Shown: piece after piece, positions 881 through 60,419 of the stretch
Position numbering within the stretch: the first letter of the stretch is position 1
Layout of the letters: each line of letters begins with the position of its first letter
DNA from: the human T2T-CHM13v2.0 reference genome, Homo sapiens
Assembly: GCF_009914755.1 (NCBI RefSeq)
Contig: NC_060925.1
DNA length: 64,000 nt
Strand: one strand, 5' to 3'
Notes under the pieces: generated by a model
What the model was told of the DNA's origin: nothing
Databases searched by the model: none
What the model saw: the letters and a program-made list of their open reading frames with translations, nothing else
Made by a program: the position numbers and the translations under genes

Positions 881-1568
881 AGAACATATATAGCTTCATA
901 AGACTAAGGTCTATGAGTAGCTGTGTTTCCTGAAAACAATAGAGTTTGACAATTCAGTTGGCTCTAATTCATCTAATTTACTATTAACATTTTAGAAGAT
1001 GGCCAACGAGATTAAAGAGATAATCAAGACTAATCAAGCAACTTTAACATTTTGTCTATGATAAGTGATCTTTCTGTAACCAGGGCTCAGATAAAACAAG
1101 CATATTTTTAGGAGGAAAGAGGAGTTCCAAAGACCCTCAGGGTCTGAAGGGAATTCGTGTTTGCATTCAAGGTAAGAATTCCACTTCCATTTGACTTCCT
1201 ATCTAGGTGGTGACCAACTACGTGTGTTTAAAATGCAAACTGATCAGCGAGTTAGAAAATTAAGATGAAAAGGCTTGAGCAGTTCCTTCTATGTTGCTTT
1301 ATATTGCTAGAATGACGTGTTCCCAGACAAGGTAAAATAAGTTATACAAAAGTCAAACAATAAAAAATAAAGGTGCAGAAAAAAATGTAAATCAAATTAT
1401 TAAGAATGGCCTGGAAGATGAGAATCGGGGAGTTTTTTATTTCCATCATTATGCTTTTTTGCATTTGTTTTAGTAAGTATGTATACTACAAACATATTGT
1501 CAGAGAAAACAATAAAGCTATCAAAAAGTGGCCTGAATTTTTGGCAAATTCAACAAATTTAATGGTTA

Positions 1569-3100
1569 TTCCTCAAAGATCTAGAAGCAGAAATACCATT
1601 TGACCCAGCAATCGCATTTCTGTGTGTATACCCAAAGGAATATAAATCATTCTATTATAAAGATACATGCACACATATGTTCATTGCAGCACAATTCACA
1701 ACAGCAAAGAATAGGAAATCAACCCAAATGCCCATCAATGATAGACTGATAAAGAAACTACCATCAGAGTGAACAGGCAACCTACAAAATGGGAGAAAGT
1801 TTTCACAACCTACTCATCTGACAAAGGGCTAATATCCAGAATCTACAAAGAACTCAAACAAATTTACAAGAAAAAAACAAACAACCCCATCAAAATGTGG
1901 GCAAAGGACATGAACAGACACTTCTCAAAAGAAGACATTTATGCAGCCAAAAAACACATGAAAAAATGCTCACTGGCCATCAGAGAAATGCAAATCAAAA
2001 CCACAATGAGATACCATCTCACACCAGTTAGAATGGCAATCATTAAAAAGTCAGGAAACAACAGGTGCTAGAGAGGATGTGGAGAAATAGGAACACTTTT
2101 ACACTGTTGGTGGGACTGTAAACTAGTTCAACCATTGTGGAAGTCAGTGTGGCGATTCCTCAGGGATCTAGAACTAGAAATACCATTTGACCCAGCCATC
2201 CCATTACTGGGTATATACCCAAAGGACTATAAATCATGCTGCTATAAGGACACATGCACATGTATGTTTATTGCAGCACTATTCACAATAGCAAAGACTT
2301 GGAACCAACCCAAATGTCCAACAATGATAGACTGGATTAAGAAAATGTGGCACATATACAACATGGAATAATATGCAGCCTAAAAAATGATGAGTTCATG
2401 TCCTTTGTAGGGACATGGATGAAGCTGGAAACCATCATTCTCAGCAAACTATCGCAAGGACAAAAAAACCAAACACCTCATGTTCTCACTCATAGGTGGG
2501 AATTGAACAATGAGAACACATGGACACAGGAAGGGGAACATCACACTCTGGGGACTGTTGTGGGGTGGGGGGAGGGGGGAGGGATAACATTAGGAGATAT
2601 ACCTAATGCTAAATGACGAGTTAATGGGTGCAGCGCACCAGCATGGCACATGTATACATATGTAACTAACCTACACATTGTGCACATGTACCCTAAAACT
2701 TAAAGTATAATAATAATAAAATAAAGAAAATGTGGCACATATACACAACGGCATACTATGCAGCCATAAAAAGGAATAAGATCGCATCCTTTGCAGGGAC
2801 ATGGATGGAGCTGGAAGTTGTCATCCTCTGCAAACTAACACAAGAACAGAAAACCAAACATCACATGTTCTCACTTATAAGTGGGAGCTGAACGATGAGA
2901 ACACATGGACATATGGGGGGAACAACACACACTAGGGCCTGTTGGGGGTGGAGAACATCAGGAAGAATAGCTAGTGGATGCTGGGCTTAATACCAGGGTG
3001 ATGGGTTCATCCGTGCAGCAAATCACCATGGCACTCATTTACCTGGGTAACAAACCTGAACATCCTGCACTTGTGCAGCGGAACTTAAAATAAAAGTTGA
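1569..3100 (+). mobile_element. Older L1PA (approx. L1PA10-13) 3' end, split by a nested younger L1
   Basis: ORF2 C-terminus and 3'UTR at 1569-1757 resumes collinearly at 2730 (gataaagaaa|atgtggcacat) and ends aacttaaaataaaagttga. Confidence 0.85.
1758..2720 (+). mobile_element. Young 5'-truncated L1PA (approx. L1PA3-5) with ORF2 C-terminus, 3'UTR and tail
   Basis: ORFs 1769-2071 and 2135-2371 are L1 ORF2p C-terminal ([24 protein letters not shown]); G-rich 3'UTR; TSD ataaagaaa at 1749-1757 and 2721-2729. Confidence 0.95.
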
Positions 3101-3265
3101 CTTTTAAAAGACTAAAACAAAGAGAAAATGATACTACCAGAGCTGTAACATGTGATTATTAGTGGAGGGAAAATTTGGAAGCAGCATTTCTACTAACACC
3201 AAAGAAGGGGCATGTATTCAGTGATAAGATAAATTTCCTTGCAGTTACCAGAAGGGAAAACTAGA

Positions 3266-11403: not shown

Positions 11404-14183
<2,780 letters not shown>

Positions 14184-14619
14184 GCATTCCTCCTAAAATG
14201 TGACAAATTAACTACTTGCTTTTTGTCAGGTTCCCTTCCTAACTTGCTCTCATATTCTACTTGCCTGAATAGAGAAAGAACTGAAAGTTCTGCTTGCACT
14301 ATTATTTGTGAGATAATAAAAATTCTAATTTTAATCAAAATAATTTTCTATGTAGATGGGCCAGAATAAGTTGATTGAATATGAAGCTTGGGATCTCATA
14401 TAATTTAATAAAACTGTATTGATCCAGCCTGAGTGTAGGAAAGAGCTTCTACTTATCTGAAGGCTGTGGTGGTGACAGCAGCAGCGGCAGCCTGACATGG
14501 TACTTTAACTTGCAACATAGTTGTCTGGGACATTGAAGTAGCAGCATTTTAATTACCAATTGTAGATGGCAGTTAGAAATTCATGTATCTCAGTATTTTT
14601 TGGGCTGCATGATCACTAA

Positions 14620-18558: not shown

Positions 18559-19095
18559 CTTTATAGGAGAGGAAATATTTCACCTTTATTCTGTTAGAAT
18601 CTCTAGCTGGGCTTAAGAATTTAACATAAGACAGAATAACTGGAGAAAAGTATACAAGTTTCCTTTTTTTTTCCTACATGTTCGTGAGAGTTTCACAAGA
18701 AAAATGAAGACCCAAAGAAGCAGTTAGAGTTGAAACCTTATATACTAAGTTGGACAGAGAGTAGTAAATTGAGAAACATGATAAGGCAAAGGGAGCTGGG
18801 CTAGGGTAGTTAATCTTGAAGAAGTAACTAGGAAGACAAAGGTTCCTTTGATAAAGCTTGTTTTGTATAGATTTCTGTCAGCCTCAGCTTTCCATTCTTA
18901 GTGATAAGAATGTTTCATTCTTTCTGATATAGGGAAGGGATACTTCACAAAGTCGTTTCATCTCCTGATTTCAGGAAGAAAAAGAAAATTCCAAGTGTCC
19001 TTCTTGCATCTGCTGTTTTTCAAGCGCTTTCAACTCAAAATCATCAATATGTCAGGGCAGTGTATTTGGGGGTGGTATGTTCTGAACTCGTTCGT
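18559..19095 (-). mobile_element. MER34-family (ERV1/MER4 group) LTR
   Basis: Reverse complement begins gttcagaacataccacccccaaata...gacatattgatgattttgagttgaaagcgcttgaaaaacagcagatgcaagaagg. Confidence 0.7.
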
Positions 19096-20221: not shown

Positions 20222-20422
20222 ACTTACTCAGCGTCAAAAGATGCTATTAACGCTGAGCCGGCATCATTTTTCATCTTAAAGAGGGCACTAAATAAGCACA
20301 GTAAATTCATACCAGTGAACCTACATGTACTAGCCATAAAATAGCACATTGTTCAGGTTGAATTCCTTTATTAATGCTTATTCTTTGAGTCAATTGGCCA
20401 ATAACTTTGCCAAATTGTTAAT
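20222..20422. promoter_or_regulatory. Candidate conserved cis-regulatory module, copy 1 (paralog of 34684-34877)
   Basis: Block-wise identity to copy 2; AP-1 TGAGTCA 20386-20392, TGGCCAA/TGCCAA NFI half-sites, CATAAA. Confidence 0.55.
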
Positions 20423-27683: not shown

Positions 27684-28990
27684 TTCTGACTGGCATGAAA
27701 TGGTATCTCATTGTGGTTTTGATTTGCATTTCTCTAATGCTCAGCAATATTGAGCTTTTTTTCACATGCTTGTTGAACACATGTATGTTTTCTTTTGAAA
27801 AGTATCTGTTCATGTCGTTTACCCACTTCTTAAGGAGGTTGTTTGGTTTGTTGTTGTTGTTGTTGTTGTTAATTTGCTTAAGTTCCTTAAAGATGCTGAA
27901 TATCAGATCTTTGTCAGATACATAATTTGCAAAAATCTTCCATTCTGTAGGTCGTCTGTCTACTCTGATGATAGTTTCTTTTGCTGTACAGAAGACCTTA
28001 CATTTAATTAGATCTCATTTGTCAATTTTTCTCTTGTTGCGATTGCTTTTGGTGTCTTTTTCACGAAATCCTTGTCCGTTCCTTTGTCCGGGATGGTATT
28101 GCCTAGGTTGTCTTCCAGGATTTTTGTAGTTTTGGGTTTTACATTTAAGTCTTTAATCCATCTTGACTTGATTTTTGTATATGGTGTAAAGAAGGGGTCC
28201 ACCTCCAATCTTCTGCCTCGCCAGTTATCCCAGCACCATTTATTGGATAGGGAGTCTTTTCCCTCACTGCTTGTTTTTGTCAATAGCTATTATTAAAAAG
28301 TCAAAAAATAACAGATGCTGGTGAGGTTACAGAGAAAATGGAACACTTCTACACTGTTGGTGGGAGTGTAAGTTAGTTCAACCATTGTGAAAAACAGTAT
28401 GGCGATTCCTCAAAGAGCTAAAAGCAGAACTACCATTTCACCCAGCAATCTCATTACTGGGTCAGTATATTCCTCTGGTGTATATTCAGAAGGATATAAA
28501 TTATTCTGCCGTAAAGACACATGCATGCAAATGTTCATTGCAGCCCTACTCACAATAGCAAAGACATGGAATCAACCTAAATGCCTATCAATGATAAACT
28601 GGATAAAGAAAATGGGATACATATATACCATGGAATACTATGCAGCCATAAAAAGAATTAGATTATGTCTTTTGCAGGAATATGGATGGAGCTGGAGGCT
28701 GTTATCCTTAACAAACTGACACAGAAACAGAAAACAAAACACCACATGTTCTCACTTGTAAGTGGGAGCTGAATCATGAGAACTCATGAGCACAAAGAAG
28801 GGAACAACAGACCTGGAGTCTACTTGAGGGTGGAGAATAGGAGGAGGGAGAGGAGCAGAAAATATAAATATCAAGTACTAGGCTTAATACCTGGGTGATA
28901 AAATAATCTGTACAACAAACCCCCATGACACAAGTTTACCTATATAACAAACTTACACATGTATATCAAAACCTAAAATATACATTTTTA
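27684..28990 (+). mobile_element. L1PA15/16-like element with 5' inversion (27684-28283 minus, 28284-28990 plus)
   Basis: Minus segment ends at sense ...ccagtcagaa; plus segment resumes at atagctattattaaaaagtc; degenerate TSD aaaaattgtggagttttct / aaaaattatgtacttttct. Confidence 0.88.
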
Positions 28991-34683: not shown

Positions 34684-34877
34684 ACTTGCCAGTGAAAAAT
34701 GCATCAGGAAATGTCAGCCTTCCATTTTTCATCTTAAAGACGACAACACTAAATAAGAACAGAAATTCACACAGGTAAACCCATCTGTGCTGAGCATAAA
34801 GCCACACAGTCTTCAAGATGAATTATTTCAGTGTGTGAGCCTTTGAGTCAGATGGCCAACTTTGCCAAATTATTAAT
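34684..34877. promoter_or_regulatory. Candidate conserved cis-regulatory module, copy 2 (paralog of 20222-20422)
   Basis: Block-wise identity to copy 1; AP-1 TGAGTCA 34844-34850, TGGCCAA/TGCCAA. Confidence 0.55.
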
Positions 34878-43328: not shown

Positions 43329-45392
<2,064 letters not shown>

Positions 45393-46029
45393 AGATATGG
45401 GTTTTTTCATTTGCAGTGTGTACCCACCATGTGCACATCATCACCTAGGTGTGCCACCAAATCTCCCCACTGGGATTTGACAGGTGAAGAGAACCAATGT
45501 AAATATGAAGTTCATGCTGCTTGTTGGCTTGTTGTGCTTTCAATAATAAATAAAGTCCTTTGTCTCTGACCCAGGAGTCTCATATCTCCTGCCAGTATCC
45601 ATGAAATTGTGGCAGGGTAATTTGTTTGGTTCTGAGTGGGTAAAATCTCAGATTTCTCACCACTCTTGATATTCCAGAGATATTTTCATTTTGGAACAGA
45701 AAACGTTCCCCTAAAACAAGGTGATGAATTTCCAATTTGTGTTTTAGAAGGATGAATTTTCTTTATTAAGAATTTCAGACACTAATGAATGATTTTTAAG
45801 CAATAGACCTTTCCATTGTGTCCCTTAACCAGCTTATATGACAGCCTGGGTGGAGTGCTTTGGCACTAGCTCACCTCCTGAAAGTAAAGGACTAAGAATG
45901 TCAGGGTGAGCAAAGCCTTTAGAAGACAACGGATGCATCTCAATATATTGTAAATAAAATGTTCTAGAAGCCTGGCAATATATTGCTAATATATTTTCTA
46001 TTGTTGAACGCATTGTGTCTGGCTCCAGA

Positions 46030-49152: not shown

Positions 49153-50030
<878 letters not shown>

Positions 50031-51679: not shown

Positions 51680-51860
51680 ATAAGTGTATTGCAAATAATG
51701 GAAATAAGTTTCCCACTGTCAAAGAAAGGATTACAAATATAGAAAGGGGGAAGACTAGAAAGAGCTCTAAGGTGTTAGAGTGGAATGGGAGATATCAGTG
51801 TGAACTCATGGTTTTTAATGGATATATAGATAAATATTGATGTATGTGTGTATAAATATA
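51680..51860 (+). mobile_element. L1MC/MD-type 3'UTR fragment
   Basis: tttcccactgtcaaagaaagga...gatatcagtgtgaactcatggttttt. Confidence 0.55.
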
Positions 51861-51938
51861 TGTATATATATGCATACATGAATGATACCTTTTTAAAGGC
51901 TAAATATATATATGTATATATATGTATATATATATATG
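51838..51938. repeat. (TA)n/(TATG)n microsatellite
   Basis: tatatgtatatatatgcatacatg...atatatatatgtatatatatgtatatatatat. Confidence 0.9.
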
Positions 51939-54900
51939 CACCACTCTTTTTATTCATTCGTCTCTCTATAGATACTAATATTGTTTCCATATGTCAACTA
52001 TTGTGAATAATGCTGTAATAAACATGGAAGTGCAGACATCTCCATTTCCACTCAGTATCTTTGAGATAATGATTTCATTTACTTTGGCTATACACCCAGA
52101 AGTGGAATTTCTAGATCATATGGTAGTTCTATTTTTAATTTTTGGAGGAACCACCATACAGTTTTCCATAATGGCTAAACCAATTTACACTCCTATCAAC
52201 AGCAAATAAGGGTTCCCTTTTCTCCACATTCCTGCCAACACTTATCTTTTGCCATTTCAGCAAACGTGAGGTGATATCTCATTGTGGTTTTGATGATGAT
52301 CAGAGATGTTGAGTACTTTTTCATATACCTGTTGGCCATTTACATGCCTTTGAGAAATTATCTATTCAGGTCCTTAGCCCATTTTGTAATCTGTTTTTTG
52401 TTTTGTTTTGTGTTTTTTTGCTATTGAGTTTTTTAATTCCTTATATACTTTGGATTTTAACCCCTTATCAGGTGTATGGTTTATAAATATTTTCTGCCCT
52501 TCCCATATTGCCTTTTCATTCTGCTGATAGTTTTCTTTGCTGACCATAATAAGCTTTTTAGTTTGGTGTAATCTCATTTGTCTATATTTGCTTTTGTTGC
52601 CTGTACTTTTGCTGTCATATCCAAAAAAATCATTGCCCAGTCCATTGTCAAGAAGCTTTTTCCCTATGTTTTCTTCTAGTCGTTTATAGTTTCAGGCCTT
52701 ATGTTTGAGCCTTTAATCCATTTTGAGTTCATTTTTGTATATGGTATGATAAGGGTCCAATTTCATTCTGCATGTGGATATCCAGTTTTCCCAATATCAT
52801 TTATCGAAGAGACTAGTGTGTGCTCTTCCCTTCCCTAGTGTGTGTTCTTGGCACTTCTGTAAAGATCAAGTGACTTTAAAGGCATAGATTTATTTTGGGA
52901 TCCGTATTCTGTTCCATTTAGTTCATATGTCTTTTTTTATAATGCCAGTATCATGCCATTTTGATTAATGTAGCTTTGTAATATGTTTTAAAATCAGGGA
53001 GAGTGATGCTTTCAGCTTTATTCTTCTTGTTCAATATTACTTTGTCTATTCATGGTCATTTTGGGATCTATATGAATTTTAGAATTTTCTTCTATGTATT
53101 TAAAGATAGCCATTGGGATTTTGATAGGAATTATATAGAATCTGTAGATCACTTTGGGTAGTATGAACATTTTAACAATATTCTTTCTTAATCCATGAAC
53201 TTGGATGTCTTTCCATTTATCCGTGTCTTCTTTAATTTCCTTCACTAATGTTTTACACTTTCAGTATACAAATCATTCAACTCTCAGGTTAAATTTATTC
53301 CTAAGTATTTTAATTTTTATTGCTATTGTGAACAGGATTTATTTCTTAATTTTCTTTTCAAATATTTCATTGTTAGTGTATAAAACTAAACTAATTTCAC
53401 ATTTTGATTTTTGTATCCTGCAACTTTATGGAATTTATTATCTAACAGTTTTATGTTGAGTCTTTAATATTTTCTTCATATACAATCATGTCATCTGCAA
53501 ACAGAATTTTTCTTGTTCCTTTCTTTCAGCTTGAAATAAACTATTATACAATGTCACTTCTTCCTTTCTGGTTCAGATTTTTTTTCCATTTTTCTATTTT
53601 CAGATGTTTATTTCTATTTATTTGGTCTAATTGCACTGGCTAGAACATCCAGTACTTTGTTGAATGTAAGTGGTGAGAGTGGGAATCCCTGCCTTGTACT
53701 GGATCTTAGAGGGAAAGCTTTCAATTTTCATTGATAATGTTAGCCATGGGCTTTTCATATATGGCCTTTCTTGTGTTGAGATAAGTTATTTCTATTTTGT
53801 TGAGAGTTTTAATTATTAATAGATGCCACACTTTGTCAAATACTTTTTCTGTGTCTATTGAGATAATCGTTGTTTTTTTTCTTTCATTTTGTTAATGTGG
53901 TGTATCACATTGATTTATTCATGCATATTGAACCATCCCTGCATCCCAGGGATGAATCCTCCTTGGCCATGATGTATAATCCTTTTAATGTGCTATTTAA
54001 TTTGGTTTGCTAGTGTTTTACTGAGGATATTTGCATCTATGTTCATCAGTAAGTTTTCTTCTGGTGTCTTTGTCTGCGTTTAGTATCAGTGATGCTAGTC
54101 TCATAAAATGAGTTTGAAAGTATTCCCTCTTCTATTTTTATAAAAAGTTGAAGAAAAATCACCATTAATTCTTTAATGTTTAGGAGAATTCACTCATGAA
54201 GCCATCTGGTCCTATGCTTTTTTTTGTTGTTGGGAGGTTTTTGTTTCCCATTTCAGTCTCCTTATTTGTCGTTGGTCTGTTCAGACTTTCTATTTCTTCT
54301 TGATTGAGTTTTGTTAGAATGTATGTTTCTAGAAATTTATCCTTTTCTTCTAGGTTATCCAATTTGTTGGCATATAATTCTTCATAATAGTCCCTTATGT
54401 TCCTTTTTTATTTCTGAGGCATCTATTGTAAAGTCTCCTCTATCATCTCTGGTTCTATTTATCAGTCTTCTCTTTCTTAGTCTAGCTAAAAGATTGTTGA
54501 TTTTGTTTATTTCTGCAAAAAAAAAATCTTGGTTTGTAGATTTTGTATTTTTTTCCATTTTCTATTTTATTTATTTCTGCACTAATCTTTATTATTTTCT
54601 TTCTTCTACTAATTTAGGGCTCAGTTTGTTCTTTCTTTTCTATGTCATTGAGGTATAAAGTTAAGTTATTTATTTGTAATCTTTCTTCTGTTTTAATGTA
54701 AGCATTTAATGTTATAAATTTCCATCTTAGTACTACTTATGCTGCACTGCATAACTTTTGGTATATTGCGTTTCATTTTTGTTCCTCTTAAGATATTTTA
54801 AATAGTCTTTTTTGATTTTCTCTTTGATTCAGTGATTGCTCAAGAGTGTGTTATTTAGTTGCCACATATTTATGAATGCTTTTATTTTCCTACTGTTGTA

Positions 54901-55055: not shown

Positions 55056-55113
55056 GGAATTCTATTGGAATTCTACTGGAAAATTCCACTGGAATTCTAC
55101 TGGAAAATTCTAC
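55056..55113 (+). repeat. 11/13 bp tandem repeat with 24 bp higher-order unit
   Basis: ggaattctatt ggaattctact ggaaaattccact ggaattctact ggaaaattctac. Confidence 0.9.
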
Positions 55114-55918
55114 ATATATATATGGTATATTTCTGTGTGTATGTATATATACAACATATATACACATATATTTATATATACACACCATACATATACATAT
55201 ATACCATATATACCATATGTGTATATATGTGTATGTATATCTGTATATGTTCTATATATGCCATATATATACCATATATATGGACCATATATATACCATC
55301 CTTATATACCATATATATGGTGCATATATATACCATCTATATATACAGTATACATGTATACACCATATATACCATATATATGTATATATGGTACACATAT
55401 ATGGCATATATATCTGGTATATAAACTATATACATATATACATACATATATGTCTATATGTCATATATGTTTATACATATGGTATATATATGGTATATAT
55501 ATGGTGTATATGTATATATGTTGTATGTGTGTATATATAGTATATATAAATATATGGTATACATATATATGGTGTGCGTATATATATGGTGCATATACTC
55601 ATATATTTTGTACGTATATGGTGTGTATATATGGTGTCTGTGTATATATATGTACATATAGTCTATATGTATATATATACACACATCATATATTTATCTA
55701 TATGTTATGGTGTATATGGTATATATGTATATATGGCATATATGGTATCTCATGTATATACACACACATATGATGCCATATATATGTATAGATGATGTTT
55801 CATATATGTGTGTATATACATGAGATGTCATATACACCATATATACATGTATACCATATACACTATATATACACAACATGTATCTATATGGTGTGTGTGT
55901 GTATATATGTATATATCA
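55114..55918. repeat. Complex ~800 bp TA-rich, quasi-palindromic simple repeat
   Basis: CCATATA-rich blocks alternate with TATATGG-rich blocks; 64 bp inverted repeat 55710-55773 / 55800-55863. Confidence 0.92.
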
Positions 55919-57235: not shown

Positions 57236-57610
57236 CTAACAAAACTTACCTCCAAAATGTTTAAGACTTAGTTCAGGTAGTATCTTTATCAGGTAAAATA
57301 AAAGCATATCAAACCAAAAGTGTACTCACTCTCTCACCCCAAAATGAAGAATACACCAATGTAATATAATATGATTTTTTATTGACTTCTGTCCTCCACC
57401 CAGCTCCTATTCTAAAATCGGGCCAAACAAAAATTCTTATCTTCTTGAGAGGGGCGAGGGGAAAGGTCAAGTTAGAGAATGACTGCCTTATAATCATTTG
57501 GGACTTTCTTAGTTCAGCTTATAGGACATATTGTGTTAGTAATTATTGGTGTATTTCCCATACAACTAATTATTTAGGATATTTTATTTCATAATGACTG
57601 AAAGACCAAC

Positions 57611-57950
57611 TGTTTTAGTTCATTTTTGCTACTGTAATGAAATAACCAAGACCAGATAACTTCTGATCAGAAATATATTGGCTCAGTTCTGAAGGCAGTA
57701 AATTCCAAGATCTAGGAGTTGGCATATGGTAAGGGCCTTCTTGCAGCATCATCCTATGGCAGGAAGCAGAAGGGCAAGAGAGAACAAGAGGAGGATGAAC
57801 TCATCCTGTCATAGTAGCTCCATGCCCATCTATCAGGGTGGAAGCCTCATAAACTAATCGCCCCTTAAAGGTTCTACATCTTAATACTACTACAATAGCA
57901 AGTATATTTCAATATGTGTTTGGGAGGGGACAAACATTCAAACCAGAGCA
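57611..57950 (-). mobile_element. MST/MLT1A-type solo LTR
   Basis: tgttttagttcatttttgctactgtaatgaaataacc...ggggacaaacattcaaaccagagca; TSD ccaac/ccaag. Confidence 0.8.
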
Positions 57951-58041
57951 CCAAGTAATAAATACTATTTTTTCACCAATCTCAAAATAACATAACTTTT
58001 TTTAAGTTTCGGGATCCACTTTTCATGTTATGGTGCTTTAA

Positions 58042-58290
58042 TGTGTGTGTGTGTGTGTATCTATATGTATATAAAGACACATGCATACATACACATATAT
58101 ATATACACATATGCATACATATATAGAAATATATAGACATGCGTACTTGTGCACATTTGTATGTGTACAGATATATACATATATCTGTGTATATATGCAT
58201 ATGTCTATATATATAGTCAGATATATATAGAGAGAGACACACGCGTATCTATCTATCTATATATGTCTATCTACCTATCTATCATCTCTA
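58042..58290. repeat. Compound (TG)n/(TA)n/(TCTA)n microsatellite
   Basis: tgtgtgtgtgtgtgtg...atatatatacac...tctatctatctat. Confidence 0.9.
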
Positions 58291-59594: not shown

Positions 59595-59860
59595 CTGAAA
59601 TCATTGTCACCCTCCTATGTAAAACCCTTAAGCAATTCCCCACTCACTTTAAAATAGTGTCCAAATTCCTTAGCCAGGTGAATTTCATGAATTGATCCCT
59701 GCCTACACCACCACCCCTACACCATCACTCCAGTCTTACTGCTCCTGTTGTATCCTCACTACGGGTTCCAAATATATGGAAACACAAACAAATTCTTCCA
59801 TGTACCTGGGCATTTGTGTAAGATAAACCCTCTGCCCAGAAAGTTCTTCTATTTCTGGTT
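59595..59860 (+). mobile_element. L2 fragment (resumes ~60430-60630)
   Basis: tcattgtcaccctcctatgtaaaaccctt...gtccaaattccttagcc. Confidence 0.6.
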
Positions 59861-59898
59861 TAGGCCTCTGCTCTGGCCCCATATAGTCGTATTAACCA

Positions 59899-60419
59899 TG
59901 TTTTTTTTATTTTGTTTATTTTGACATTTTGACATTTTAGGCCTTGCTGTCTCCCTGGAGGGACTGCCCCTTCAAGGGTTAGCTAATTCCTAGTGAGAGC
60001 AAACAACTAGCCTGGGAGCATGCCTTTGATATGCAAACTACCAATCCAGAGGCTGTACCCCCAACTGCCTTCTTTATCAGCTCTCATCTACCTGCCGGAA
60101 TCACCCCAGGGCCAGGTACCAGACAACTAGAAACAGCCCTTACGCCAGAGACTGCTGAAATTATTCAAACTAGCCAATCCTAAATCTGCTCACTCTGCTT
60201 TGTCTAATCACAAGAAAGGCTGTTGCCCACATTGCCCCTTCCATCCTCCTCCACCCCCACCTCCTGATCGACCCTAGTGCTTCCCCACATGGCCTCTCAT
60301 AGCACATTGTACCCTCTCCTCTTGAAGTTTCTGAGTGCAACTATTTTTTCTATCTATTCATCTCCTGATCTGTTGGCCTCATCATACCTAAATAATAACA
60401 AAAACTTTATTTTAAGATA
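59899..60419 (+). mobile_element. MER39/LTR48-like (MER4 group) solo LTR
   Basis: gccttgctg..ccctggagggactgcccc...gctaattcctag...atatgcaaactaccaatccagag...ccaggtaccagacaactag. Confidence 0.65.

What the first reader, a model, noticed from the sequence alone, without database searches (positions are those of the whole stretch)
20222..20422. Paralogous block-conserved element pair ~14.5 kb apart (copy 1): candidate anciently duplicated enhancer module
Non-repeat sequence 20265-20422 aligns collinearly, same strand, with 34723-34877 at roughly 70% identity by hand count, with weaker similarity ~40 nt further upstream. The identity is block-like: CATTTTTCATCTTAAAGA (18/18), CACTAAATAAG, AAATTCA, CATAAA, TGAATT, CTTTGAGTCA, TGGCCAA and CTTTGCCAAATT.TTAAT are invariant, while spacers are scrambled but keep nearly the same length. 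The flanks show no convincing similarity. Neutral decay would scatter mismatches evenly, so this pattern suggests an old local duplication whose motif grammar was kept by selection. Invariant blocks include an AP-1 site (TGAGTCA), two NFI half-sites, a CDX/posterior-HOX-like CATAAA and a homeodomain TTAAT. It matches no transposon I recognise and has no shared ORF. This is the best candidate for an undescribed system here: twin (shadow) enhancers, or a small uncharacterised conserved element or ncRNA family.
Basis: partly seen in the sequence, partly recalled or inferred. Interest (0 to 1): 0.8.

Follow-up and report, generated by a model that had tools for sequence, protein, structure and literature searches.

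The report
Two-copy non-coding element upstream of ST6GALNAC5
Two short stretches of non-coding human DNA 14.5 kb apart are real old copies of one another, found nowhere else in the genome, with both ends kept nearly identical and the middle drifted, which fits a duplicated pair of regulatory elements but has not been tested across species or for activity.

Summary
Window 20265-20422 and 34723-34877 (same strand) align at 74% identity, with 117 of 161 columns identical. The local score is 67 against 11.6±1.4 for shuffles.

- **Boundaries:** the flanks are not homologous, and the claimed upstream extension to 20222 is not above chance.
- **Copy number:** whole-genome searches find only these two copies. 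A dispersed repeat in the same window with a similar pairwise identity gave 2281 candidates.
- **Other readings:** there are no transposon hallmarks, no shared ORF, no Rfam match and no stable fold.
- **Uneven identity:** the 5' arm has 3 substitutions in 44 sites, the 3' arm 3 in 37, and the middle 29 in 71. A scan test gives permutation P=0.005, and 0 of 400 uniform-rate simulations reach the observed value. Simple run-length tests were only marginal.

My best reading (about 0.5) is an old local duplication of a discrete ~160-nt unit whose arms are under purifying selection, most likely paired distal regulatory modules. Cross-species conservation, chromatin state and Dfam membership could not be tested here. 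Duplicated conserved elements and enhancers are a known kind, so interest is moderate.

The parts
20265..20422 (+). Copy 1 of the paralogous element (158 nt), about 52.7 kb upstream of the annotated ST6GALNAC5 start at window 73077
   Evidence: Local alignment, self-BLAST and whole-genome BLAST. Model R1 scores it 145 bits.
20265..20309 (+). Copy 1, 5' arm (45 nt), holding the shared 18-mer and the 11-nt and 7-nt shared blocks
   Evidence: 3 substitutions in 44 ungapped sites against copy 2, K 0.07. The arm pattern is found only twice in the genome at up to 3 mismatches.
20310..20382 (+). Copy 1, diverged middle (73 nt)
   Evidence: 29 substitutions in 71 sites, K 0.59. It is still homologous: global score 11 against -17.2±4.3 for shuffles. 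The scan window holds 30 of the 39 differences.
20383..20422 (+). Copy 1, 3' arm (40 nt), holding CTTTGAGTCA, TGGCC and AACTTTGCCAAATT
   Evidence: 3 substitutions in 37 sites, K 0.09. The arm pattern is found only twice in the genome, with 0 control matches.
34723..34877 (+). Copy 2 of the paralogous element (155 nt), about 38.2 kb upstream of the annotated ST6GALNAC5 start
   Evidence: Model R1 scores it 140.5 bits.
34723..34769 (+). Copy 2, 5' arm (47 nt)
   Evidence: Alignment A2.
34770..34840 (+). Copy 2, diverged middle (71 nt)
34841..34877 (+). Copy 2, 3' arm (37 nt)

Best explanation
The two stretches descend from one discrete unit of about 160 nt that was copied locally, on the same strand and 14.5 kb away, long ago. 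If the middle evolves neutrally, the copying happened before the radiation of placental mammals. Since then the two arms of about 40 nt have changed at roughly one eighth the rate of the 71-73-nt middle, whose length has been kept. The most likely cause is purifying selection on protein-binding sites in the arms. On that reading the copies are a pair of related distal cis-regulatory modules: two composite transcription-factor platforms held a fixed distance apart. They would most plausibly act on the nearest gene, ST6GALNAC5, 38 and 53 kb downstream.

Shown: the homology, the sharp boundaries, a copy number of two, the uneven divergence, and the lack of coding or RNA-structure signal. Inferred: the selection, the regulatory function, the target gene and the date.
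For: - **Homology:** score 67 against 11.6±1.4 for shuffles; E 2.9e-20.
- **Two copies only:** BLAST of either copy against the 3.1-Gb genome gave 2 candidates and 2 matches. Both arm patterns at up to 3 mismatches gave 2 matches and 0 control matches. A profile search of the window with filters off found no third copy; the next best hit is 8.3 bits.
- **The search does detect old repeats:** a 206-nt piece of another intra-window pair (about 71-74% identical) gave 2281 candidates, and a 94-nt repeat gave 125.
- **Discrete unit:** the flanks are at shuffle level, while the middle is clearly homologous at z about +6.6.
- **Uneven divergence:** K is 0.07, 0.59 and 0.09 for the 5' arm, middle and 3' arm. 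The scan log-likelihood ratio is 10.2, with permutation P=0.005. Three neutral repeat pairs in the same window reach at most 6.0 over 32 windows. Under uniform-rate simulation through the same alignment pipeline, 0 of 400 runs reach the observed 9.24; the maximum is 8.9.
- **No transposon hallmarks:** no target-site duplication of 8 nt or more, and terminal inverted-repeat identity of 5/30 and 8/30.
- **Not coding, not structured RNA:**
Against: - No cross-species alignment, chromatin, reporter or population-variation data could be reached, so selection rests on one pairwise comparison of 35 substitutions.
- Simpler run-length tests are only marginal: P 0.03-0.14 by permutation and 0.07-0.16 by simulation.
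- Overall divergence (K 0.275) matches a neutral repeat pair in the same window (K 0.298). The indel load is if anything a little higher: 4 gap events per 35 substitutions against 10 per 97.
- A 3-nt indel lies between the two GCCAA-type half-sites inside the 3' arm, which is not what a rigid motif grammar predicts.
- RefSeq annotates enhancers and a silencer elsewhere in this window but none at either copy (hub annotation).
- The transition:transversion count of 19:16 does not discriminate between readings.
- Dfam and Repbase were not available, so a rare, very old repeat family is not excluded.
Confidence: 0.5

Rival explanations
1. Neutral relic. A small segment of about 160 nt was copied once to a nearby site, for example by a templated insertion during break repair, roughly at the age of eutherian-wide repeats. 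Both copies have since decayed without function, and the well-kept arms are chance or local variation in mutation rate.
For: - Overall K of 0.275 is close to a neutral repeat pair in the same window (0.298), and indels are no scarcer: 4 gap events per 35 substitutions against 10 per 97.
- Run-length tests are marginal.
- No annotated functional element sits at either copy (hub annotation).
- Both copies are AT-rich with almost no CpG: 0 and 1.
Against: - The scan test rejects a uniform rate: P=0.005 by permutation and 0 of 400 simulations.
- Matched neutral pairs in the window never come close, with a maximum of 6.0 against 10.2.
- An eight-fold difference in rate over 40-70 nt, with no CpG to explain it, is not a known neutral pattern. 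That last point rests on established knowledge, not on a test run here.
Confidence: 0.3
2. Both copies are remnants of a rare or very old mobile element, or of a low-frequency conserved repeat family already in Dfam or Repbase. Its other copies would be too diverged for the searches available here.
For: - The unit has the size of a SINE or MITE and has sharp ends.
- Conserved ends with a variable middle is the pattern of elements whose termini are needed for mobility.
- NCBI's mask is clearly incomplete for old repeats, so being unmasked means little.
- No repeat library could be searched.
Against: - Only two copies exist in 3.1 Gb by BLAST and by both arm patterns. Arms only 7-8% apart would imply a young family whose other members those patterns would have found.
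- The only two copies lying 14.5 kb apart on the same strand points to local copying rather than dispersal.
- No target-site duplication, terminal inverted repeat or poly-A (and direct reading).
- Two further block patterns gave counts at or near control: 154 against 159, and 75 against 41 with only our two copies at 1 mismatch or fewer.
Confidence: 0.12
3. The pair encodes a small structured RNA family, or duplicated exons of an unannotated non-coding transcript.
For: - A 7-bp pairing between the two arms (CTTAAAG with CTTTGAG) is possible in both copies.
- Low-copy conserved non-coding pairs are sometimes RNA genes.
Against: - No Rfam family reaches its threshold. The only overlapping hit is SNORD97 at 18.5 bits against a gathering score of 45, E 4.
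- Fold z-scores run from -0.39 to -1.36 on both strands of both copies, and the minimum-energy structures differ between copies.
- The consensus fold is only -7.95 kcal/mol. Of 21 predicted pairs, 18 are identical in both copies, one differs on one side, and the 2 with changes on both sides lie in minor helices of 2 and 4 pairs.
- There are no AG/GT splice signals at the boundaries on either strand (direct reading).
- No gene is annotated in the window.
Confidence: 0.04

Closest known systems
Paralogous or duplicated conserved non-coding elements (UCNE paralogues in UCNEbase, PMC3531063, passages read; the 'dCNE' concept of McEwen et al. 2006 is recalled, not read)
   Same: - Two unique, non-coding, non-repeat stretches in one genome share significant similarity of about 70-80%.
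- The edges are sharp and the flanks cannot be aligned.
[quoted passage not shown]
   Different: - UCNEbase says most such paralogues come from the vertebrate whole-genome duplications and lie beside paralogous genes. Here both copies sit in one intergenic region 14.5 kb apart, so they are a local duplicate.
- The defining cross-species conservation was not testable here.
[quoted passage not shown]
   Same: Two sequence-related non-coding elements lie near each other in the same gene's upstream region. That is the expected trace of an enhancer duplication.
   Different: No evidence of enhancer activity or of a shared target exists for either copy. The published sets were defined by activity first, whereas this pair is defined by sequence only.
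Non-coding element families from old, diverged segmental duplications (Weaver and Lowe, Mol Biol Evol 2026, PMC13333887, passages read)
   Same: That paper hypothesises that some clusters of similar non-coding elements outside annotated segmental duplications and repeats come from ancient duplications now below the 90% identity or 1 kb thresholds. This pair, at 74% and 158 nt, is of that sort.
   Different: [quoted passage not shown] Their supplementary tables could not be read here, so I do not know whether this pair is listed.
Conserved non-coding families derived from ancient transposons (Xie, Kamal and Lander 2006, seen only as an entry in the reference list of PMC13333887; the family name MER121 is recalled)
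   Same: Short non-coding units with well-kept sequence and no coding or RNA signal.
   Different: From recall, those families have hundreds of dispersed copies. This one has two adjacent copies.

Membership tests
Duplicated / paralogous conserved non-coding elements | Significant similarity between two non-coding regions of one genome | tested here: met
   Score 67 against 11.6±1.4 for shuffles; E 2.9e-20; E 2.5e-15 against the whole genome.
Duplicated / paralogous conserved non-coding elements | Not a dispersed repeat (low copy number) | tested here: met
   2 candidates and 2 matches per BLAST search. Arm patterns gave 2 matches against 0 control. Control repeats gave 125 and 2281 candidates. 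Dfam was not searched.
Duplicated / paralogous conserved non-coding elements | Each copy conserved between distant vertebrates | not testable with these tools
   No vertebrate genome other than the window's own is held. Pattern scans of genome contigs and viral contigs gave no hits or chance hits only.
Duplicated / paralogous conserved non-coding elements | Copies flank paralogous genes from whole-genome duplication (the usual case) | tested here: not met
   Both copies lie in the same intergenic stretch 14,458 nt apart, so this is a local duplicate.
Duplicated / paralogous conserved non-coding elements | Slower change than neutral DNA | tested here: inconclusive
   The arms have K 0.07-0.09 against 0.59 in the middle. 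The scan test gives P=0.005 and 0 of 400 simulations. There is no independent neutral yardstick for the age of the duplication.
Shadow / redundant enhancer pair | Both elements show enhancer activity (chromatin marks or reporter) | not testable with these tools
   No chromatin or reporter data are available. RefSeq functional elements in the window lie at 49594-49794 and 59785-60322, not at either copy (hub annotation).
Shadow / redundant enhancer pair | Same target gene and overlapping expression pattern | not testable with these tools
   The only evidence is position: 38 and 53 kb upstream of ST6GALNAC5.
Transposable element / dispersed repeat family | Many dispersed copies | tested here: not met
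   Searches find only the two copies above background.
Transposable element / dispersed repeat family | Insertion hallmarks (target-site duplication, terminal inverted repeats, poly-A tail) | tested here: not met
   No direct repeat of 8 nt or more with at most 1 mismatch within 45 nt of the ends. Terminal inverted-repeat identity is 5/30 and 8/30. No A-run at either end.
Transposable element / dispersed repeat family | Match to a curated repeat consensus (Dfam / Repbase) | not testable with these tools
   No repeat library is on hand.
Structured non-coding RNA family | Match to a curated RNA family, or a stable conserved fold with covariation | tested here: not met
   No Rfam hit reaches a gathering score. 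Fold z-scores run from -0.39 to -1.36. The consensus fold is -7.95 kcal/mol. Two sequences give little power for covariation.
Segmental duplication (at least 1 kb, at least 90% identity) | Length and identity thresholds | tested here: not met
   The unit is 158 nt at 74% identity and the flanks are non-homologous. No other collinear match lies near the same offset.
Protein-coding exon / pseudogene fragment | Shared open frame | tested here: not met
   Every one of the 6 frames has 1-6 stops in both copies, and the 1-nt and 2-nt gaps shift the frame.

The most novel reading that the evidence does not exclude
The pair is a pre-eutherian twin of a two-part regulatory module. Two composite binding platforms of about 40 nt are held a fixed ~72 nt apart by a freely evolving spacer, and both copies are kept by selection upstream of ST6GALNAC5. 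That would make it a clean natural example of a shadow-enhancer pair born by a small local duplication, in which one can read directly which parts of the grammar are constrained.
Probability: 0.4. Interest if true: 0.45.

Novelty: new member of a known kind. Interest (0 to 1): 0.35.

Why it matters
If the arms are constrained in both copies, the pair works as a natural mutagenesis experiment. Two old copies of one regulatory module would show which 40-nt blocks and which spacing matter and which sequence is free. It would also give a concrete case for the duplication origin of redundant enhancers, at a brain-expressed sialyltransferase gene (the expression pattern is recalled, not checked here). 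If the arms are not constrained, the pair is an ordinary decaying small duplicate and of no further interest. In both cases it shows that NCBI's repeat mask cannot be used to call a sequence non-repeat, and that a regional scan test sees unevenness that run-length tests miss.

Tried and rejected
- **Chance similarity:** rejected.
- **Larger segmental duplication:** rejected. No other collinear match appeared among the 106 HSPs at E≤50 between 10-30 kb and 25-45 kb. The only other significant hits with offsets between 12.5 and 16.5 kb are repeat fragments at 27-28 kb against 43-45 kb, none of them at the pair's own offset of 14,458. The flanks are at shuffle level.
- **Upstream extension to 20222:** rejected.
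- **A third copy:**
  - The only other exact 18-mer in the genome (chr3, L038) scores 14 bits with the profile after being picked by that 18-mer, so it is a chance hit.
  - 28 loci picked by another block pattern scored at most 14.2 bits.
  - The 18-mer with 1 mismatch gave 61 matches against 30 control. The other two block patterns gave 154 against 159, and 75 against 41.
- **Profile search of the whole genome:** the tool does not take a model for this genome, so I used patterns instead.
- **Orthologues as host contamination in public collections:** 0 hits in genome contigs and 0 in viral contigs. Three chance 18-mer hits in viral contigs did not match the profile.
- **LTR pair of an old retroelement:** rejected by direct reading (no TG...CA ends), by length (158 nt is too short) and by the absence of solo copies.
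- **Coding exon, small RNA, snoRNA or miRNA:** rejected.
- **Canonical palindromic NFI site:** the two half-sites are 10 and 7 nt apart by direct reading. My window search used a 6-nt spacer through a miscount and found 0 matches, so it tests nothing useful.
- **AP-1 motif as independent evidence:** rejected. There are 11 in the window against 12.55 expected.
- **Literature on this locus:** three searches listed no paper that treats this pair or conserved elements upstream of ST6GALNAC5.
  - PMC3595034 held none of my search terms.
  - The supplement of PMC13333887, which uses the same assembly, could not be read.
- **NUMT origin:** not tested, because the genome held has no mitochondrial contig. 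I judge it unlikely, since both copies have the same boundaries.

Full report
**Where it is.** The window is human chr1 (T2T-CHM13), in a stretch with no annotated gene upstream of ST6GALNAC5 (hub annotation). I read both claimed copies.

**Is the similarity real?** Yes.
- A local alignment of 500-nt pieces around the two sites picks out 20265-20422 against 34723-34877 on the same strand. Its score is 67, against 200 shuffles of mean 11.64, sd 1.42 and maximum 20.
- A sensitive self-BLAST of the whole window reports the same pair at 73.9% identity over 161 columns, E 2.9e-20.
- MAFFT gives 117 identical columns of 161, 35 substitutions (19 transitions, 16 transversions) and 4 gap events of 3, 1, 2 and 3 nt.
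The four longest identical runs are 18, 14, 11 and 10 columns.

**How far does it reach?**
- The unit is discrete. Local alignments of the 60, 150, 400 and 1000 nt on each side score no better than shuffles.
- Global alignments of the adjoining 36, 72 and 144 nt give z of +0.9 to +1.3 on the left and -1.9 to -2.8 on the right.
The feature starts at 20265, not 20222.
- No other collinear match exists. Among 106 HSPs at E≤50 between 10-30 kb and 25-45 kb, the only other significant ones with offsets between 12.5 and 16.5 kb are repeat fragments at 27-28 kb against 43-45 kb, and none lies at the pair's own offset of 14,458.
- So this is not the visible core of a still-alignable segmental duplication.

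**Is it a dispersed repeat?** Not at the sensitivity I had.
- BLAST of copy 1 (219 nt) and of copy 2 (361 nt) against the whole 3.1-Gb assembly each gave 2 first-look candidates and 2 matches, the query itself and the other copy.
- Patterns for the 3' arm and for the 5' arm, each allowing 3 mismatches over about 30 specified bases, each gave 2 matches and 0 control matches.
- Three further block patterns gave counts like or near their controls: 61 against 30, 154 against 159, and 75 against 41. Only our two copies matched the latter two patterns at 0-1 mismatch. The 18-mer has one further exact match, on chr3.
- That third exact 18-mer (L038) and 45 other pattern-picked loci scored at most 14.2 bits with a two-copy sequence profile, against 145 and 140.5 bits for the real copies.
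- With filters off, the profile finds nothing in the window above 8.3 bits.
- The tool does see old repeats. A 206-nt piece of another intra-window pair (about 71-74% identical) gave 2281 candidates. The first 94 nt of a 3-kb query gave most of 125 candidates at 76-84% identity.
- Neither control repeat is in NCBI's list of masked stretches, so being unmasked says little. Copy number is the evidence here.
- Dfam and Repbase could not be searched, and the genome cannot be searched with a profile. A very old family whose other members are below about 70% identity is therefore not excluded.

**Other simple readings.**
- No target-site duplication of 8 nt or more lies within 45 nt of the ends. There are no terminal inverted repeats (5/30 and 8/30 identity) and no A-run at either end.
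- All six frames carry stops in both copies.
- Rfam gives nothing near a gathering score. The only hit overlapping the element is SNORD97 at 18.5 bits against 45, E 4.
- Single-strand folds have z-scores of -0.39 to -1.36 and differ between the copies.
- The consensus fold is weak at -7.95 kcal/mol. Of its 21 pairs, 18 are identical in both copies and one differs on one side. The only 2 with changes on both sides lie in minor helices of 2 and 4 pairs.

- Run-length statistics, with each gap counted once, are marginal.
  - By permutation, P is 0.045 for the sum of squared runs, 0.14 for the longest run and 0.033 for the top four runs.
  - By uniform-rate simulation with realignment, P is 0.10, 0.16 and 0.07.
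- The differences are, however, strongly regional.
  - The 5' arm has 3 substitutions in 44 sites (Jukes-Cantor K 0.07).
  - The middle has 29 in 71 (K 0.59).
  - The 3' arm has 3 in 37 (K 0.09).
- Those borders were chosen after looking, so I used a scan statistic over all possible windows. The best window holds 30 of the 39 differences in 72 of 156 columns, with a log-likelihood ratio of 10.2. In 1000 permutations, 0.5% reach that value.
- Three neutral repeat pairs from the same window, cut into 32 windows of equal length, reach at most 6.0.
- I also simulated a 158-nt unit in random flanks, evolved it at a uniform rate with indels and recovered it by the same local alignment. Of 400 runs, 0 reach the observed 9.24; the maximum is 8.9.
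- The middle is still clearly homologous, with a global score of 11 against -17.2±4.3 for shuffles, whereas the flanks are not.
- The picture is therefore two arms about 92% identical, a middle at 59% identity of nearly kept length (73 and 71 nt), and abrupt ends.

**What this means.** A uniform neutral decay is unlikely. The other explanations I considered were these.
- **A young duplication with a hypermutated middle.** This has no known mechanism at 41% difference.
- **Two separate short gene conversions that homogenised the arms.** This is implausible between 158-nt copies this diverged (inference).
- **A mobile family with conserved termini.** Such a family would leave other copies matching the arm patterns, and none exist.
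- **Purifying selection on the arms.** This is the simplest reading.

If the middle is neutral, 0.3 substitutions per site per lineage puts the duplication before the placental radiation. That uses recalled values for the human-lineage neutral rate, and it is an inference, not a measurement. Unique, constrained, non-coding, non-RNA DNA is most often cis-regulatory, so I read the pair as two related distal regulatory modules. ST6GALNAC5 is the nearest candidate target, 38 and 53 kb away.

**Evidence against that reading.**
- The case for selection rests on 35 substitutions in a single pairwise comparison.
- Overall K (0.275) is close to a neutral repeat pair nearby (0.298), and the indel load is no lower: 4 gap events per 35 substitutions against 10 per 97.
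- One indel sits inside the 3' arm and changes the distance between two GCCAA-type half-sites from 10 to 7 nt (direct reading).
- RefSeq lists experimentally based elements elsewhere in the window but not here.
- The transcription-factor names are recalled, and no motif library was available. TGAGTCA is at background frequency in the window, 11 against 12.55 expected.

**What is known.**
- Paralogous conserved non-coding elements are catalogued. UCNEbase reports that 464 UCNEs have a human paralogue, out of the 4351 it covers, and that most paralogous UCNEs come from whole-genome duplication (PMC3531063, passages).
- Duplication is a documented origin of redundant enhancers: signatures appear in 33.9% of 9,051 mouse sets (PMC13345019, abstract; PMC7093719, passages).
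- Old diverged duplications are proposed as a source of non-coding element families in this same assembly (PMC13333887, passages). Its supplement could not be read.
- Three searches listed no paper on this pair or on conserved elements upstream of ST6GALNAC5.
- If confirmed, this would be a new member of a known kind: a local rather than genome-duplication paralogue pair. It would not be a new system.

**Verdict.**
- Probabilities: constrained regulatory pair about 0.5, neutral small duplicate about 0.3, rare old repeat about 0.12, RNA about 0.04.
- Interest: 0.35.

Noticed in passing
window 11404-11805, 13777-14184 (direct) and 57610-57782 (inverted): These are copies of an old dispersed repeat, about 71-74% identical to each other within the window. 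A 206-nt piece gave 2281 first-look candidates genome-wide at 75-85% identity. None of these stretches is in NCBI's list of masked stretches, so that mask misses old repeats.
   Followed up: partly
window 19000-19094: This is a fragment of another dispersed repeat. Most of the 125 candidates from a 3-kb query map to these first 94 nt, and the 38 scored hits are 76-84% identical. It is also absent from the mask list.
   Followed up: partly
window 1563-3103, 27684-28801, 43355-45329, 52249-52811: Several fragments of one long interspersed repeat family are shared in both orientations at 62-97% identity. They look like LINE-1 pieces, but that name is recalled and was not tested.
   Followed up: no
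window 45309-45416, 51814-51961, 55100-55910, 58029-58282: These are clusters of TA-rich and TATA/ATAC-type simple repeats with many overlapping direct and palindromic matches.
   Followed up: no
L038 (G000 chr3:35353421-35353438): This is the only other exact copy of the 18-mer CATTTTTCATCTTAAAGA in the genome. The surrounding sequence scores only 14 bits with the two-copy profile, so it is a chance match.
   Followed up: yes
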